DNA of 52,005 bases, from the IMG/VR virus record IMGVR_UViG_2534681674_000035; one strand, 5' to 3'. Position numbers: made by a program. This document shows, one piece after another, positions 1 through 6,000 of this stretch. The DNA comes from a virus. Lineage: Duplodnaviria; Heunggongvirae; Uroviricota; Caudoviricetes. Positions within the stretch are counted from its first letter, which is position 1. Each line of letters begins with the position of its first letter.

Positions 1-3000
1 ATGCCCCTAAATGATATGCAGATTCGCCGTGCTAAACCTGAAGCTAAAGCCTATACACTTGGGGATGGGCAAGGGTTGTCTTTACTTGTAGAGCCAAATG
101 GAAGTAAAAGCTGGCGATTTCGTTATCGCTATGCCGGTAAACCCAAAATGATCTCGCTTGGTGTTTACCCAACGATCACTCTTGCTGATGCTCGTTCCCG
201 TCGTGATGAAGCTCGAAAACTTGTGGCAGAAGGAAAGAACCCTAGTGAGGTTCGAAAAGAGCAAAAGCTGGCTCTGCAAACAGAGTCAGAGAACGCCTTC
301 GAAAAGATAGCCAGAGAGTGGCATCAACAGAAGTCTACCAAATGGTCGGCGGGATATGCATCAGACATCATGGAAGCGTTTAAGAACGACATTTTTCCTT
401 ATGTGGGAACAAGGCCAGTGGGAGAGATTAAACCGCTAGAACTGCTTAATGTGCTGCGTAAAATCGAAAAGCGCGGAGCATTAGAAAAAATGCGCAAAGT
501 TCGGCAGCGATGCTCAGAAGTTTTCCGCTATGCCATTGCTACTGGAAGGGCTGAGTTTAACCCTGCTGCGGATCTTTCAAGCGCCCTCAATGTACACCAA
601 TCAAATCATTTCCCGTTCTTAAAGGCTAATGAGATACCTGATTTTCTTCGCGCCTTAAACGGATATACCGGAAGTCGGCTTGTCCTGATTGCCACGAAAT
701 TGCTCATGATTACAGGTGTTAGAACCATCGAATTACGTGCGGCATTATGGTCAGAATTTGATTTAGATAACGCTATTTGGGAAATTCCTGCTGAAAGGAT
801 GAAAATGCGCAGATCACACCTTGTGCCTTTGTCGACTCAAGCGTTAGATTTGCTAAATGAACTCAAGATGATGACAGGGAAGTATAGTTATGTTTTTCCG
901 GGGCGGAACGATCCGAACAAGCCTATGAGTGAGGCGAGTATTAACCAAGTTATCAAGCGTATTGGTTATGGTGGAAAACTTACTGGTCATGGATTTCGAC
1001 ATTCCTTATCTACTATCCTCCACGAAAAAGGATATGATTCGGCTTGGATAGAAATACAGCTTGCTCATATAGATAAGAATAATATTAGAGGTACGTATAA
1101 TCATGCTCAATATATTGATAAACGCCGTGATATGATGCAGTGGTATTCAGATTATATTTTTATTAAGGAGAATGTGAATGAGTAACGAGTTTGATAGTAG
1201 TAAACTAGAAAATTGCTTTGAGCTTGCATTGGAAAATATTATAAAGCACGGCGATACAGATATTTTCCCTTACCCATTTGAAAGTCGGTTATTTGAAGAT
1301 GATAAGGAGAAAGTAAAAACTGCATTAATGCAAACATTTAATGACTTTGAAAATAAAAGGATCGAGATTCCACCAAACATAATTAATAGCTTTTCAAGTA
1401 TTGGTTATTATGGTTACAGGTGGGCGACCCAAATTGATCCATTCTGGAATGCTTTTTTTCTTGGGTTAGTTTTAAAAATCGCTGATGATATTGAAAGGAA
1501 TAGATCTACTAAAACGCAGGTTTATTCATATCGCTTTAAACCAAACCTTGCTGATGGTTCTCTTTTTGATAAAGAGATCTCTTGGAGAAAATATCAAGAA
1601 GACAGTATCTCTGAATGTTCTAACGATGAAATAAAGTATGTACTTACATGCGATATAGCAGATTTCTATCCGCGTATTTATCACCACCGTTTAGAAAATG
1701 CGTTAGATAGAGTAGACCCCAATAAAGATTACTCTGGGAAAATCAAGAAATTACTACAGACATTTAGTGAAACAAAATCATATGGAGTACCAGTTGGATG
1801 TCCTGCCTCTAGAATATTAGCAGAACTAGCTCTAGATTCTATTGATAAATTATTGTCTATGAATAGAATCAACTATAAGCGTTATGTCGACGACTTTGTT
1901 ATTTTTTGTAACTCTAGAGAGGATGCTCATAAGATTTTAACTTTGCTTAGTAAAAAACTGATGGAAAATGAAGGGCTAACTTTACAGAAACAAAAAACCA
2001 ATATTGTTACTAAAGAAGAGTTCCTTTCAGTAACTAAAGCTAAGTTGCATGGTAATGATGAAGATGAAGAATCTCCTATGAAGGCTAAATTTATGAGTCT
2101 TCCTATAAGATTCGATCCTTACTCAGCAAATGCGATAGAGGAATATGAAGAGATAAAGGAATCTTTAAAAGATTTTGACTTGTTAGCTATGCTGAGTAGT
2201 GAGTTACAAAAATCAAAAATTAACCAATCTTTTAGCAAGCATTTGATAAAGGCATTCTCAGCAACATCAGATGAAATAATAAGTAGTGCTTTCAAAGTAA
2301 TGTTTAATAACTTGCATGAGTTATATCCAATATTTACAACTATAATTCAAGTAGCTAACTCCAACTGGCAAAAATTAAGCACAGAAACCAAAGATATTAT
2401 TCTTGATAAAATAACTGCACTAATTAAACAAGATTCATATATTTTGAGTACTGAGCTCAACTTAGCCTATGTAGCCCGAATGCTCTCAAAAGAAAATTCA
2501 GAAAAATCCACCCTAATCCTTAGTGAAATATACAATAACAATCCAGAAAGCATCTTAGTCAAGAACATAGTTACACAGTCAATGGCAAAAATTAATTCTT
2601 ACGCATGGCTTTCTGATATCAAAAAAAATTTCTCTGCAATGCATCCGTTGCAGAGAAGACTATTGATCGTTTCCAGTTACATCTTAGGTGATGAAGGACG
2701 GCACTGGAGAGAGCATAATAAGAAAACATTCAACTTTGTAGAGGTGATTTACAGGGATTGGGCAAGTAAAAGGCATACCGCAAGAAATCTTGAGGATGCG
2801 CTATGATATCTGAATTAACGTTTTCTCGAAAATTCACTTCATTTTGGAATCAATTGCTTCCAAATGCTAATAATTTCATACGCATCATTAACGGCAGTCT
2901 CATCGAGGACGTTTATCCTCCTCTAGATGACTGCGCTAATAGGTCAAATAACGTCTTTGTCAATGAGTGCGCATTTAATTTATATAGGGCAATACAGAAT

Positions 3001-6000
3001 GATTCGTTAGACAGAAATATTCTTTCAGCACATGATATCTTCCATAATGCTGATTTTCAGGTTGTTTTTGAAAAAACAAAAGAATATCTACAGCGGTTCG
3101 CTTACGGTTCTAACTTCAAGCTACCCTTAAGCATGGTTGAGTACAATGCCATAAGGGAAATAGCAAGAAACATTTTGTCTCGATATGGAATGGAAAACCA
3201 AATTGAAGTGTCTCCACAATTCGATGGATGCGGAGTAATAAATAATTCATATGGCGATATTTATTATTCAAATGTTCTTGTGGAAATAAAATCAGGAGAT
3301 AGGAAGTTTAGTGTTTACGATCTTAGACAGGTGCTAATATATTTCACTTTAAACTTTTACTCAAAAAACAAAAGAAACATCAAGAGATTTGAGCTTTTCA
3401 ATCCTCGGATGGGTATCACTTATAGTGATACCATTGTCAACCTTTGCAAAGAGTTGGCGTTTATTCAACCTGAAGAATTGTACTTTGAGATAATGAATTC
3501 TATTACAGAAGAAAATTTCATAGTAACTGAAATGCAACGCTAGATATCATGCAGACCGCTACAATCCATTGTAGTGGTCTATTTCTAAAAGTTCCTTCTG
3601 ACGAATAAAGCCAAAATACCAAATAGAATTAAAGAAAATTATAATATCAGCCTTAGCGCGCAATGCTCCCCCCGCCACGCCCGCCCGCTTTGCGGGGCGG
3701 TTTTAATGCAGTTGTACTGACGCGCTCAGACCGCGCCGGGAATGGCGCGGTTTGCAGAAAATGAGGCAGGAAAACGCATGCAAAGCCATGCACCTTATCG
3801 ATGCATGGCTTTTTTCAGTAAAAACGGGCGGATTTTCGGGGAGTTTTACACAGACTGATGTGATGCCAGTTGCGCACTTTTACGCGAAAAAATCATGTTC
3901 TGCGCAGGAGTGAATTTTTCACGGCTGTCATCCACCGAAGCCGCGTCAGGCCTGAATCCGATGGCCGTTAAAATGTCGCTATCCTGTGCGGAATAATTAA
4001 TTTTTTCCCCCTTCGCAAGCCAGGACAGAAGGGCTTCACGCAGGGCATCTGTGGCACGCTGTATGGCACAGTTTCGGGCAATGGCCGTCAGCTCACTGTA
4101 GCCCATCAGCCCCGGTGCCAGTGCCGCCGCCAGTGCTGTGCCGTGCTGCTGCATAAAATCATTCAGCCGGTCGCGGATGCTGATGTGCTGAACGGCTTCA
4201 TGCGAACGAATATAACGACCGGCGGCCTGATTCACCTGCCATTTTCTGACTTCAATAATATTGCGTAATTCGTCCAGGCGACTGACGTTTCTGCCTTCTC
4301 CTGACAGAAGCCGCAGGTATTCCTGTTCGGCCGCTGCCAGCTCATTTTTGCGTTGCAGCCATGCTGCTTTGTTATTCTGACAGGTGTCAAAGGCCTGCTG
4401 TAAGGCTGTGCTTTCCATCGTTATCTCTTTCTCATCATGCTGAAGAATAAAAATACGGTGTGCGGCGACGGCCGGGGTTAACCGGCAGCCCTCATTCCAG
4501 ACGCAGCGAATATGATTGTGTTTTTAACCGTACTGGCGGCAGTTCCTGTTTTTCATGCAGGCTTTCTGCCAGTTCGTCCGGCGTGACCGGGCGGACAATG
4601 AAACGGTTGATGGTCTGAAGCGTTTTAAACACCAGACCACAGCCCAGATCCGTGCACAAATAAAAACGCTCGGTGACTTCCTGAGACAGACGCCTCGATG
4701 TTCTTGACAGTGCAAGGCCTTTACATCTCCGACAACAATATCCGGTAACAAGCATTCTTTTCGGGCGTTTCATACTGCCGGAGGCTGACGTCAGTGAATC
4801 GCGGTATCTCTGTTTGCCTGAAATGTATTCCATTCCTGAATCTTTACTGTCAGAGAAAAAGCTTTCACTCGCTTCAAATGTCGCAGAGCAATAAATATTC
4901 CGGCACTGTGCAATCATTATCTTGGTGCCATCGTCCATGAAATGTGCGCGGCGGGTGTGAGCAACATGTCCACACGACGGGCAGTAAATCATGACAGCAG
5001 TCCTCTGGCCTTAAGCTCTGCACCCTGCTGGTCTATTTTGTCCTGCCACACCTTGCGCTGTGCCGGTGTGCCTGCCACCTCATAATCCATGTGCGGGAGT
5101 GTTGCCACTGACAGTCCGGCCAGCCGGAGAACCGGCTCACCGCTGAGGCTGATTTGCATCTGTTTAATTTTCTGTTCCAGCGATGATTTCACCTGCTGCA
5201 TGACAGCCTTTTCCGGCGCGACGTAGCCCTGATGGCCGGTGGTGTTGGCGAGCGGATTTTCCTGTACCAGGATGCTCAGATGCATTGCCCGGACAAGCGC
5301 CTCACAGGTTTCATTCAGGGCGTGTTCCAGCTCATGCTCTGCATACAGACTCAGAAGGTGATGATGTGCCTTCCGGTAGGCGGTGGCCGTGCTGTCACAC
5401 GCCCCTTTCAGGCGTTCACGTTCGAAATTCAGCACCACGGCCAGATTGTCATATTCCTGTACCAGCTCCCGGCGTGCCACGCGCTCAATGTGGCGCTGTT
5501 TCAGCTCGTCGCTCAGGACACCACCGGCTGCACGAAAGGCCGTGCGCCAGTCGTCAGCGTCGTTTCCGTCGGCCTGCGTCAGCGCATTTTTTTCCTGCTC
5601 TGCCCGTTCAATGGCCGTGACGGTCTCATCCATCAGGCGGGCGTTCTCAAGGTGGGCGGCTCTGGCCTTTTCCAGTTGTGCCAGTGCGGGTTGCAGATAT
5701 TCAGGGATGGTGTTGTCAGACATTTTCCGGCTCCTCGTCACTTCAGGTTGAGAAAATTGTGACGTACACCGGACAACAACACGACGCATTGCAGATGTGC
5801 CAGCCCTGACACAGGAGACTCATCCTCAGACCGGCAAGCCAGGAAAAGGTCGCAGGAAAAACCGGCTTACTGTTTGTTTTTTTATATTTTACTGTTCACC
5901 TCTGTTCACCATAAGAAAAAAGATAAGTAATACAGTAAGTTAAAGGGTGAACAATCGCAGTAATGACTGTTCACCGTCTGTTCACCCGTTGATGGGCTTT

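What the first reader, a model, noticed from the sequence alone, without database searches (positions are those of the whole stretch)
1178..3543. Unclassified two-gene reverse-transcriptase system in the P4 int-psu hotspot
Between the P4-type integrase and psu, where P4-like satellites are known to carry interchangeable anti-phage cargo, lies an AT-rich operon. Gene 1 encodes a 542-aa reverse transcriptase (motif A CDIADFYPRIY, motif B GVPVGCPASRILAELAL, motif C YVDD) with a ~240-aa helical C-terminal domain carrying an Rx4H string (R508..H513). Gene 2 is translationally coupled (ATGA overlap) and encodes a soluble 246-aa protein. The architecture resembles Abi/UG-class defence RTs, but the partner is not a retron effector I recognise, not a second RT and not a transmembrane SLATT protein. 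I cannot place it in a named family (AbiA/AbiK/Abi-P2, DRT1-9, retron), so it is either a divergent member or a new RT-based defence system.
Basis: partly seen in the sequence, partly recalled or inferred. Interest (0 to 1): 0.9.

Follow-up and report, generated by a model that had tools for sequence, protein, structure and literature searches.

The report
DRT8 reverse transcriptase–nuclease defence system
The two genes are real, but they are not a new system: they are DRT8, a published anti-phage pair of a UG7 reverse transcriptase and a nuclease, and these exact proteins are already listed as the second most common cargo of the P4 satellite hotspot in E. coli.

Summary
Window 1178-2806 encodes a 542-aa reverse transcriptase (RT) with an intact YVDD motif and an all-helical C-terminal half. 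Window 2803-3543 encodes a soluble 246-aa partner, joined by an ATGA overlap. Both lie in AT-rich DNA between a P4-type integrase and cos/psu.

The claim that the system is unclassified does not hold. PADLOC assigns the RT to Drt8 (E=4.9e-166, full length) and the partner to RTasPDDEXK (E=5.5e-69). The next best RT family scores 128 bits against 552.

The DNA is 100% identical to an E. coli locus encoding WP_000064054.1 and WP_000622599.1. Mestre et al. 2022 list that RT accession as UG7. Rousset et al. 2022 list this exact pair as system #2 of the P4 int-psu hotspot (294 occurrences).

UG7 plus its PD-(D/E)XK partner was named DRT type 8. It was shown to protect against T5, and both active sites were required.

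New here:
- The RT model matches DRT4, DRT6, AbiK, Abi-P2 and AbiA.
- The Rx4H string is not conserved.

The DRT8 mechanism is still unpublished. My proposal is protein-primed, untemplated ssDNA synthesis coupled to the nuclease as effector; this is inferred.

Verdict: already known, low interest.

The parts
1..1185 (+). P4-type tyrosine integrase (394 aa). This is context: its last 8 nt overlap the RT start, and the left junction of the variable cargo lies within its 3' end (about 1106-1166).
   Evidence: ORF. RefSeq names it 'tyrosine-type recombinase/integrase' in the 99.95%-identical locus next to tRNA-Thr. Related int alleles that lack the RT stop matching at window positions 1106-1166.
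1165..1170 (+). Shine-Dalgarno-like AAGGAG, 7 nt upstream of the RT start codon and inside the integrase coding sequence.
   Evidence: Sequence read directly. No consensus sigma-70 site was found on the + strand between 600 and 1178, so co-transcription with int is plausible. This is inferred.
1178..2806 (+). Drt8 / UG7 reverse transcriptase gene (542 aa; identical to WP_000064054.1).
   Evidence: PADLOC Drt8 E=4.9e-166, 552 bits, full length. Pfam RVT_1 at 68 bits. 100% DNA identity to NZ_CP027587.1. Listed as UG7 by Mestre et al..
1607..2023 (+). RT fingers/palm core (aa 144-282), carrying motifs A (158-168), B (203-219) and C (YVDD).
   Evidence: Pfam RVT_1 match at aa 144-282. Motif positions. 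D159, D238 and D239 are invariant in 51 homologues.
1883..1894 (+). Catalytic YVDD (aa 236-239).
   Evidence: V237, D238 and D239 are invariant. Mutating the RT catalytic site abolishes DRT8 defence in the family (Mestre et al.).
2054..2125 (+). Flexible linker between the RT and the helical domain (aa 293-316). It ends in the invariant D313-P314-Y315-S316. Y315 is a candidate protein-priming tyrosine (inferred); the alternative candidate is the invariant S117-Y118-R119.
   Evidence: pLDDT is below 50 at 293-298 and 314-316. Column counts. Priming residues of other Class 1 enzymes lie in flexible loops, or (in UG10/DRT7) in a mobile helix of the alphaRep domain.
2132..2800 (+). C-terminal alpha-helical repeat (alphaRep/HEAT-like) domain (aa about 319-541), with the conserved D505-E506-G507-x-H509-W510-x-x-H513-N514 motif.
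   Evidence: AF2 model is all-helical from 319 to 541 with pLDDT mostly above 90. Full-length Foldseek matches to DRT4, DRT6, Abi-P2, AbiA and AbiK. Conservation.
2803..3543 (+). DRT8 partner gene: an RT-associated PD-(D/E)XK nuclease of the RecB/Cas4 type (246 aa; identical to WP_000622599.1). Its start overlaps the RT stop (ATGA).
3214..3342 (+). Nuclease catalytic core (aa 138-180): G151-D152, E161-I-K163, Q176-x3-Y180.
   Evidence: D152, E161, K163, Q176 and Y180 are invariant in 49 homologues that share 33-89% identity. Nuclease active-site mutations abolish DRT8 defence in the family.
3554..3579 (+). Inverted repeat GACCGCTACAAT-CC-ATTGTAGTGGTC, followed by TATTTCT. Probably the operon terminator (inferred).
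   Evidence: Sequence read directly. It was not called by the strict T-run scan.
3653..3845 (.). Conserved cos-proximal P4 backbone, which marks the right end of the variable cargo. It includes a cos-like 19-mer at 3663-3681.
   Evidence: Homology to the P4 reference psu-cos fragment (95.6%) ends at 3653, and the 19-mer matches P4 cos at 15 of 19 positions. Homology to a second P4-like locus starts at 3657.
3846..4418 (-). psu (polarity suppression protein). Context only.
   Evidence: ORF. RefSeq names it 'phage polarity suppression protein' in the near-identical locus.

Best explanation
**Identity.** Window 1178-3543 is a type 8 defence-associated reverse transcriptase system (DRT8). It consists of a Class 1 UG/Abi reverse transcriptase of group UG7 (RT domain plus C-terminal alphaRep domain) and its translationally coupled PD-(D/E)XK nuclease ('cluster 17' / RTasPDDEXK). 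It is carried as the interchangeable cargo of a P4-like satellite between int and cos/psu in E. coli.

**Shown for the family (literature).** DRT8 protects E. coli against phage T5. Defence needs both the RT catalytic site and the nuclease active site.

**Inferred mechanism for this locus.**
1. Like every Class 1 UG/Abi enzyme characterised so far (AbiK, Abi-P2, AbiA, DRT4, DRT7), the RT uses no RNA template. It primes on one of its own tyrosines; the candidates are the invariant Y315 in the flexible RT-alphaRep linker and the invariant Y118. It then makes single-stranded DNA that stays covalently attached.
2. The RecB/Cas4-type partner comes from a clade of nucleases that act on ssDNA ends. 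It is the effector. It is held in check by, or acts together with, the RT-ssDNA complex.
3. A phage DNA-binding or DNA-end-protecting protein perturbs that complex during infection. The nuclease is then unleashed on DNA, which stops phage replication, probably at the cost of the cell (abortive infection).

**Confidence.** About 0.95 for the identity as DRT8. About 0.4 for the specific mechanistic steps.
For: **Identity**
- PADLOC gives Drt8 at 552 bits (E=4.9e-166) over model positions 4-492 of 493. The next best family, UG21, scores 128 bits. The partner matches RTasPDDEXK at 230 bits (E=5.5e-69) over 1-224 of 226.
- The DNA is 100% identical to E. coli 2013C-4974, where the products are WP_000064054.1 and WP_000622599.1.
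- WP_000064054.1 is listed as UG7 among P2/P4-hotspot RTs (Mestre et al., preprint Table S4).
- The identical protein pair is system #2 (294 occurrences) in Rousset et al., Table S1B, annotated as UG7 plus a nuclease-like protein.

**Family function**
- UG7 with the cluster-17 PD-(D/E)XK protein was named DRT type 8. It gives robust protection against T5, and RT and nuclease active-site mutants lose defence (PMC9226505).

**Architecture**
- The AF2 model of the RT (pLDDT 89.3) has an RT core plus a helical C-terminal domain.
- The best full-length structural matches are DRT4/UG15, the DRT6 hexamer (TM 0.59-0.64), Abi-P2, AbiA and AbiK.
- YVDD and motif A are invariant.

**Nuclease**
- The AF2 model has pLDDT 91.4.
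- D152, E161, K163, Q176 and Y180 are invariant.

**System-level conservation**
- The same RT-then-partner order, with the same ATGA overlap, occurs in Pseudoalteromonas luteoviolacea beside a KAP NTPase. That locus shows no P4-type genes and none was searched for.
- The same order occurs in a kinase-RT fusion variant.

**Mechanistic analogy**
- Class 1 DRTs catalyse untemplated synthesis (PMC13174585 abstract).
- DRT4 primes on Tyr125 and makes random ssDNA. [quoted passage not shown]
- Priming residues in characterised Class 1 enzymes map to flexible loops, or in UG10/DRT7 to a mobile alphaRep helix.
- In some DRT8 loci a PNP ATP-nucleosidase domain 'replaces the usual nuclease effector'. 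This supports the partner being a swappable effector.
- No Rfam ncRNA lies in or next to the operon.
Against: - No experiment exists for this exact allele. I could not establish which UG7 homologue Mestre et al. tested, because the relevant supplementary files are not held.
- Rousset et al. catalogued the pair, but it does not appear in their table of tested systems.
- The DRT8 mechanism is explicitly 'not yet established' in a May 2026 review, so every mechanistic step beyond 'both active sites are required' rests on analogy.
- No solved DRT8 structure exists.
- The priming residue is a guess between two invariant tyrosines.
- About half of UG7 RTs have no associated nuclease, so the nuclease may be an accessory rather than the sole effector.
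- No promoter was identified for the operon.
- The absence of Rfam hits does not exclude an undescribed ncRNA.
Confidence: 0.9

Rival explanations
1. DRT4-like logic inside DRT8. The killing agent is the RT's own untemplated ssDNA product. The nuclease is not the effector. Instead it matures or trims the product, for example by processing its ends or releasing it from the priming tyrosine, and this step is needed for toxicity or for sensing.
For: DRT4 and DRT6 are the closest solved structures to the RT, and they defend through accumulation of RT-made ssDNA. About half of UG7 RTs have no nuclease partner. The partner's structural relatives (MGME1, Dna2, Exo5, Cas4) are ssDNA-end processors rather than bulk endonucleases.
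Against: In other DRT8 loci the nuclease is replaced by an ATP-nucleosidase domain. That domain cannot process DNA, but it is a typical abortive-infection effector. This argues that the partner position is an effector slot.
Confidence: 0.3
2. Direct, non-abortive immunity. The RT-nuclease complex recognises and degrades incoming phage DNA ends, for example T5 DNA during its stepwise injection, and the host cell survives.
For: RecB/Cas4-type nucleases act on free DNA ends. The family phenotype is specific to T5 among the three phages tested.
Against: The characterised Class 1 relatives that I read about in detail act by abortive infection or cell death: DRT4, DRT7 and the Abi systems. There is no evidence for self/non-self discrimination. 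No data exist either way for DRT8.
Confidence: 0.15
3. One reading: an unclassified or new RT-based defence system outside AbiA/AbiK/Abi-P2, DRT1-9 and retrons.
For: Pfam sees only RVT_1 and nothing significant in gene 2. NCBIfam has no model that reaches its cut-off. RefSeq calls the products 'RNA-directed DNA polymerase' and 'hypothetical protein'. Without defence-specific profiles the locus therefore looks unassigned.
Against: Both proteins match DRT8 profiles over their full length. The exact accession is published as UG7, and the exact pair is published as a P4 hotspot system.
Confidence: 0.02
4. A retron-like or Class 2 DRT-like system in which the RT copies a neighbouring structured ncRNA.
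For: Retron RTs do occur in the same P4 hotspot. The 300-nt region downstream of gene 2 contains a hairpin.
Against: - The retron St85 model scores 56.5 bits against a cut-off of 235.
- The RT has the Class 1 alphaRep domain that retron RTs lack.
- There is no upstream intergenic space at all, because the RT start overlaps int.
- No Rfam retron msr or other ncRNA match lies in 1-6590.
- The downstream region is conserved P4 cos backbone shared with satellites that carry other cargo.
Confidence: 0.03
5. A group II intron or other mobile retroelement RT, not a defence gene.
For: The weak top NCBIfam hit is to the group II intron RT/maturase model (78 bits).
Against: That score is far below the cut-off of 300. 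No group II intron RNA domains were found by Rfam. There is no maturase X or endonuclease domain; the C-terminal domain is alphaRep.
Confidence: 0.01

Closest known systems
DRT8 (DRT type 8; UG7 RT + cluster-17 PD-(D/E)XK nuclease), Mestre et al. 2022 NAR (PMC9226505)
   Same: Both proteins match the family profiles over their full length. The RT accession is listed as UG7. The two-gene order is the same, and both the RT and nuclease catalytic residues are intact. This is membership, not mere resemblance.
   Different: Nothing structural. This particular allele's phage range has not been tested, and its identity to the allele that was tested is unknown.
P4 hotspot 'system #2' of Rousset et al. 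2022 (PMC9122126, Tables S1A/S1B)
   Same: The partner protein is identical over all 246 aa, and the RT is identical over the 399 aa printed in the table. The accession pair WP_000064054 + WP_000622599 is the same. The position between int and psu is the same.
   Different: None. In this window the host satellite appears truncated downstream, after about 7419.
DRT4 (UG15) and DRT6 (UG12), single-gene Class 1 DRTs
   Same: They are the best full-length structural matches to the RT model (Foldseek E about 5e-11 to 8e-11; TM up to 0.59-0.64 for DRT6). They share the RT + alphaRep architecture and anti-T5 activity in the family. Protein-primed untemplated ssDNA synthesis is likely shared; this is inferred.
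   Different: Sequence similarity is confined to the palm (aa 151-277). The NCBIfam Drt4 model scores 76 bits against a cut-off of 450. DRT4 and DRT6 have no nuclease partner.
AbiK / Abi-P2 / AbiA abortive-infection polymerases
   Same: Same Class 1 fold. They are template-independent, protein-primed polymerases. Abi-P2 is likewise cargo of a P2-family element.
   Different: They belong to different UG/Abi groups (PADLOC AbiP2 scores 82 bits against 552 for Drt8). They have no separate PD-(D/E)XK partner. AbiA carries a fused HEPN domain, which this RT lacks (R508 is not conserved).
RecB/Cas4/MGME1/Dna2-type PD-(D/E)XK nucleases
   Different: Sequence identity is only 7-15%. There is no conserved four-cysteine Fe-S cluster; only C143 is conserved. 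There is no helicase or Cas1 partner. The protein has a distinctive N-terminal helical half (aa 1-128) and an invariant MISE N-terminus.
DRT8 variant with a Cap17-type PNP ATP nucleosidase (Rousset et al. 2023 preprint)
   Same: It uses the same RT family with an adjacent or fused effector.
   Different: Its effector degrades ATP rather than DNA. The locus in this window carries the 'usual nuclease effector'.

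Membership tests
DRT8 (UG7 system) | The RT belongs to UG/Abi group UG7. | tested here: met
   PADLOC Drt8 at 552 bits (E=4.9e-166) over model positions 4-492 of 493; the runner-up UG21 scores 128 bits. The identical accession WP_000064054.1 is labelled UG7 by the authors who defined the family.
DRT8 (UG7 system) | Class 1 architecture: an RT domain fused to a C-terminal alpha-helical repeat (alphaRep/HEAT-like) domain. 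| tested here: met
   The AF2 model (pLDDT 89.3) is all-helical from about 319 to 541. Full-length Foldseek matches go to Class 1 enzymes DRT4, DRT6, Abi-P2, AbiA and AbiK.
DRT8 (UG7 system) | Intact RT catalytic site (YxDD; required for defence). | tested here: met
   YVDD is at aa 236-239. D159, D238 and D239 are invariant in 51 homologues. The requirement was shown for the family.
DRT8 (UG7 system) | An adjacent cluster-17 PD-(D/E)XK nuclease gene (the nuclease-associated UG7 variant). | tested here: met
DRT8 (UG7 system) | Intact nuclease active site (required for defence). | tested here: met
   D152, E161 and K163 (plus Q176 and Y180) are invariant in 49 homologues. The requirement was shown for the family.
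DRT8 (UG7 system) | Confers phage resistance (T5) when expressed in E. coli. | not testable with these tools
   Shown for a UG7 system by Mestre et al.. The allele they tested could not be identified from the files held.
DRT8 (UG7 system) | No dedicated ncRNA component (Class 1, unlike DRT2/3/9). | tested here: inconclusive
   No Rfam match lies in 1-6590 at E<=1, and there is no upstream intergenic region. An undescribed RNA cannot be excluded.
Retron | A retron-type RT with an adjacent msr/msd ncRNA. | tested here: not met
   The retron St85 RT model scores 56.5 bits against a cut-off of 235. No retron ncRNA was found by Rfam. The RT carries an alphaRep domain.
DRT4 / DRT5 / DRT3 / DRT2 (NCBIfam equivalogs) | Score at or above the curated equivalog cut-off. 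| tested here: not met
   Scores against cut-offs: Drt4 76/450, Drt5 67/550, Drt3a 66/200, Drt3b 51/350, Drt2 39/390.
Group II intron RT/maturase | Score at or above the TIGR04416 cut-off, plus intron RNA domains. | tested here: not met
   78 bits against a cut-off of 300. No intron RNA was found by Rfam.
HEPN domain (suggested by the Rx4H string at 508-513) | A conserved Rx4-6H catalytic motif. | tested here: not met
   Position 508 is Arg in 7 of 51 homologues and Lys in 26. No HEPN profile hit appears in Pfam, or among the 25 best PADLOC families shown out of 70.
Cas4 / RecB-family nuclease (partner protein) | PD-(D/E)XK core with the motifs GD, ExK and QxxxY. | tested here: met
Cas4 / RecB-family nuclease (partner protein) | A four-cysteine Fe-S cluster (Cas4, AddB, Dna2 and Exo5 subgroup). 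| tested here: not met
   Only C143 is conserved at 90% or more. The partner therefore resembles the cluster-free members (MGME1, RecB, RecE, lambda Exo) in this respect.

The most novel reading that the evidence does not exclude
The identity is known, but how DRT8 works is not. The most novel reading still open is a coupling logic not described for any DRT. In it, the UG7 RT makes a tyrosine-linked, untemplated ssDNA that is the specific substrate or tether of its Cas4/RecB-like partner. The RT's own product would then gate a DNA-end-threading nuclease. In this satellite the operon has no promoter of its own and would be expressed from the integrase transcript, since the RT start overlaps the int stop.
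Probability: 0.25. Interest if true: 0.5.

Novelty: already known. Interest (0 to 1): 0.12.

Why it matters
For the scan, the result is a correction. A locus scored 0.9 as a possible new RT defence system is a catalogued DRT8, found in 105 of 5,426 complete E. coli genomes and in 294 P4 hotspot loci in the published survey. General-purpose libraries (Pfam, NCBIfam, RefSeq product names) do not name it, which is why it looks unassigned without defence-specific profiles.

Some interest remains. DRT8 is one of the DRT types whose mechanism is still unpublished. This analysis offers concrete handles for anyone who works on it:
- the partner is a RecB/Cas4-type, Fe-S-free nuclease with a defined catalytic set (D152, E161, K163, Q176, Y180);
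- there are two candidate priming tyrosines (Y118, Y315);
- there is a conserved DEGxHWxxHN motif in the alphaRep domain;
- a natural kinase-fused variant exists.

Tried and rejected
- **Pfam and NCBIfam**. They give only a generic RVT_1 hit and sub-threshold hits for Drt2-5, retron and group II intron models. Gene 2 gets nothing significant. These libraries are uninformative for family placement, and there is no NCBIfam Drt8 model.
- **PDB sequence searches** with single sequences and with a profile. No DRT8 structure exists, and similarity to DRT4/UG15 is limited to the palm. This is too short to map DRT4's priming Tyr125 onto this RT.
- **HEPN reading of the Rx4H string.** Rejected, because R508 is not conserved.
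- **ncRNA or retron-like reading.** Rfam finds nothing in or beside the operon. The downstream non-coding stretch is conserved P4 cos backbone.
- **Promoter scan**. There is no consensus sigma-70 site upstream of the RT on the + strand, and the number of sites found is no higher than in shuffled sequence. The promoter remains unknown.
- **Identifying the DRT8 allele tested by Mestre et al.** The journal supplements are not held, and the preprint supplements contain neither the sequence nor the plasmid maps.
- **Checking whether Rousset et al. tested this pair.** Its sequences are absent from their Table S2 file, so it was apparently catalogued but not tested there.

Full report
**1.

The ORF list shows a P4-type integrase at 1-1185 (+), a 542-aa ORF at 1178-2806 (+) and a 246-aa ORF at 2803-3543 (+). 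On the minus strand lie psu (3846-4418), delta (4492-4992) and sid (4989-5789).

- motif A at aa 158-168
- motif B at aa 203-219
- YVDD at aa 236-239
- RHWREH at aa 508-513

The RT stop and the gene-2 start share ATGA. GC content is 0.28-0.42 from 1001 to 3600 and about 0.43-0.60 on either side.

An AAGGAG sits 7 nt upstream of the start, inside int.

**2. What it is**

Against PADLOC-DB, the RT matches Drt8 at E=4.9e-166 (552 bits) over positions 4-492 of a 493-position model. The next family, UG21, gets 128 bits. Gene 2 matches 'RTasPDDEXK' at E=5.5e-69 over 1-224 of 226.

General libraries do not help:
- Pfam gives only RVT_1, and nothing significant for gene 2.
- NCBIfam gives only sub-threshold hits: group II intron 78/300, Drt4 76/450, Drt5 67/550, retron St85 56/235.

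This explains why the locus looks unassigned without defence-specific profiles, and why RefSeq names the products 'RNA-directed DNA polymerase' and 'hypothetical protein'.

**3. It is already in the literature, down to the exact sequences**

The 2,366-bp segment is 100% identical to E. coli 2013C-4974. It occurs in 105 of 5,426 complete E. coli genomes, always on the chromosome, and 104 copies are at 99% identity or more. In that genome the products are WP_000064054.1 and WP_000622599.1. There the satellite sits at a tRNA-Thr gene downstream of proBA.

Rousset et al. 2022 (PMC9122126):
- Table S1A lists the accession pair repeatedly as 'RVT_1 + hypothetical' among P4-encoded loci.
- Table S1B lists it as system #2 of the int-psu hotspot, with 294 occurrences. 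[quoted passage not shown] - I checked that the printed partner sequence equals the window's translation over all 246 aa, and that the printed 399 aa of the RT are identical.

Mestre et al. 2022 (PMC9226505):
- The preprint's Table S4 lists WP_000064054.1 as UG7.
- The paper describes a UG7 variant associated with a PD-(D/E)XK protein (cluster 17).
- It notes UG7 in the P2/P4 hotspots.
- It shows robust protection against T5.
- It shows loss of defence on mutating either the RT or the nuclease active site.
- It names the system DRT type 8.

*The RT.* Among 51 homologues (44-89% identity), motif A D159 and D238/D239 are invariant. The AlphaFold2 model (pLDDT 89.3) shows an RT core, a poorly ordered linker (293-316) and an all-helical domain running to residue 541. 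Its best full-length matches in the PDB are DRT4/UG15, the DRT6 hexamer (TM 0.59/0.64), Abi-P2, AbiA and AbiK. These are the Class 1 UG/Abi polymerases.

The Rx4H string is not a conserved feature. Position 508 is Arg in 7 of 51 homologues and Lys in 26, so it is not a HEPN motif. The surrounding D-E-G-x-H-W-x-x-H-N is conserved.

Two invariant tyrosines stand out: S117-Y118-R119, and D313-P314-Y315-S316 at the end of the flexible linker.

*The pair.* The gene pair and its 4-nt overlap recur in Pseudoalteromonas luteoviolacea next to a KAP NTPase. No P4-type genes are evident at that locus, and none was searched for.

**5. Boundaries of the cargo**

Integrase alleles that lack the RT stop matching the window at 1106-1166. 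On the right, homology to the P4 reference psu-cos fragment ends at 3653, and homology to a second P4-like locus begins at 3657. The swapped module is therefore about 1107/1167 to 3652. It brings its own int 3' tail and ribosome-binding site.

A hairpin at 3554-3579 probably terminates the operon. No Rfam family matches inside or beside the operon. No consensus promoter precedes the RT on the + strand, so co-transcription with int is the simplest reading. This is inferred.

**6. How it most likely works**

*Shown for the family.* DRT8 defends against T5 and requires both catalytic centres.

*Established for relatives:*
- Class 1 DRTs make DNA without a template.
- AbiK, Abi-P2, AbiA, DRT4 and DRT7 prime on a tyrosine of their own, located in a flexible loop or a mobile helix.
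- DRT4's random ssDNA becomes toxic when a T5 DNA-binding protein protects its 3' end. The same phage protein activates DRT6.
- In some DRT8 loci the nuclease is replaced by an ATP-nucleosidase domain. This marks the partner slot as an effector slot.

*Inferred for this locus.* The RT makes tyrosine-linked ssDNA, priming on Y315 or Y118. The ssDNA-end-type nuclease is the effector and is held in check by, or works on, the RT-ssDNA complex. A phage DNA-binding or end-protecting protein disturbs this complex and unleashes DNA degradation, probably killing the cell.

I put about 0.95 on the identity and about 0.4 on these steps. A May 2026 review states that no dedicated DRT8 mechanism has been established, and no DRT8 structure is in the PDB.

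The main mechanistic rivals are:
- a DRT4-like model in which the ssDNA is the toxin and the nuclease only processes it;
- direct, non-abortive degradation of phage DNA ends.

**7. Verdict**

Novelty is 'already known'.

Interest is low (0.12). The residual value lies in the unsolved DRT8 mechanism and in the residue-level handles listed above.

**8. The rest of the window**

The window matches the thrW P4-like element of strain 2013C-4974 only up to 7419. After that it continues like that strain's ssrA-linked locus, with a DinI-like gene followed by a lambdoid prophage. The satellite in this window therefore has no alpha primase-helicase gene and looks truncated or mosaic. This does not affect the DRT8 operon.

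Noticed in passing
window 1106-1185: The RT start codon (1178) overlaps the integrase stop (1183-1185) by 8 nt, and its Shine-Dalgarno sequence (AAGGAG, 1165-1170) lies inside int. Related integrase alleles without the RT lose homology at 1106-1166. The hotspot's left recombination junction is therefore inside the int 3' end, and each cargo brings its own integrase C-terminal tail. No separate promoter was found, so the operon may be expressed with int.
   Followed up: partly
window 7419-52005: The P4-like element matches the intact thrW satellite of strain 2013C-4974 only to 7419. After that come a DinI-like gene (7694-7942) and a lambdoid prophage (tail, head, terminase, replication and Rad52-like recombinase genes), as at that strain's ssrA locus. 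No alpha primase-helicase gene is present, so the satellite in this window looks truncated or mosaic and may no longer be mobilisable.
   Followed up: partly
L005:967-4397 and L006:903-4333 (metagenome contigs; protein P0180): A natural variant in which a complete Ser/Thr protein kinase domain (Pfam Pkinase, 114 bits, aa 51-325) is fused to the N-terminus of a UG7 RT (56% identical to the window's RT). A 247-aa nuclease partner follows (43% identical, same 4-nt overlap), and an integrase lies next to it. I found no mention of a kinase-fused UG7 in the main text of Mestre et al.
   Followed up: partly
window 6591-6875: P4 immunity-region RNAs found by Rfam: the c4-a1b1 target (6591-6643, 49.5 bits), isrK (6604-6681, 69.7 bits) and C4 antisense RNA (6788-6875, 74.9 bits). 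All are above their gathering scores.
   Followed up: no
window 3653-3700: A cos-like 19-mer at 3663-3681 matches the P4 cohesive-end sequence at 15 of 19 positions. It is followed by a GC-rich hairpin (3681-3700) that is conserved in the P4 reference. This marks the conserved right border of the hotspot.
   Followed up: partly
window 2803-2814 (gene 2, aa 1-4): The partner's first four residues, M-I-S-E, are invariant across 49 homologues that are otherwise only 33-89% identical. The 4-nt gene overlap constrains only the first base of codon 2. This suggests a functional N-terminus, possibly a contact with the RT, or a constraint from translational coupling.
   Followed up: no
window 2690-2719 (RT aa 505-514): A conserved D-E-G-x-H-W-x-x-H-N motif near the C-terminus of the alphaRep domain. 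G507 and W510 are invariant, and H509 and H513 are present in 50 of 51 homologues. Its role is unknown.
   Followed up: partly
L003:3022-5737 (E. coli 2013C-4974, ssrA locus): A second P4-like remnant in the same reference strain carries different cargo at the same int-psu position: a DUF2326 protein, an 'ABC-three component system middle component 6' and two hypothetical proteins. Its sid gene is cut by an IS3 element.
   Followed up: no
H2 (NZ_CP159209.1) and H28 (NZ_CM160080.1): In two of the 105 E. coli carriers the locus is interrupted by insertion sequences. An IS3 element lies within the DRT8 segment in H2, and an IS1 element lies in the integrase in H28.
   Followed up: no
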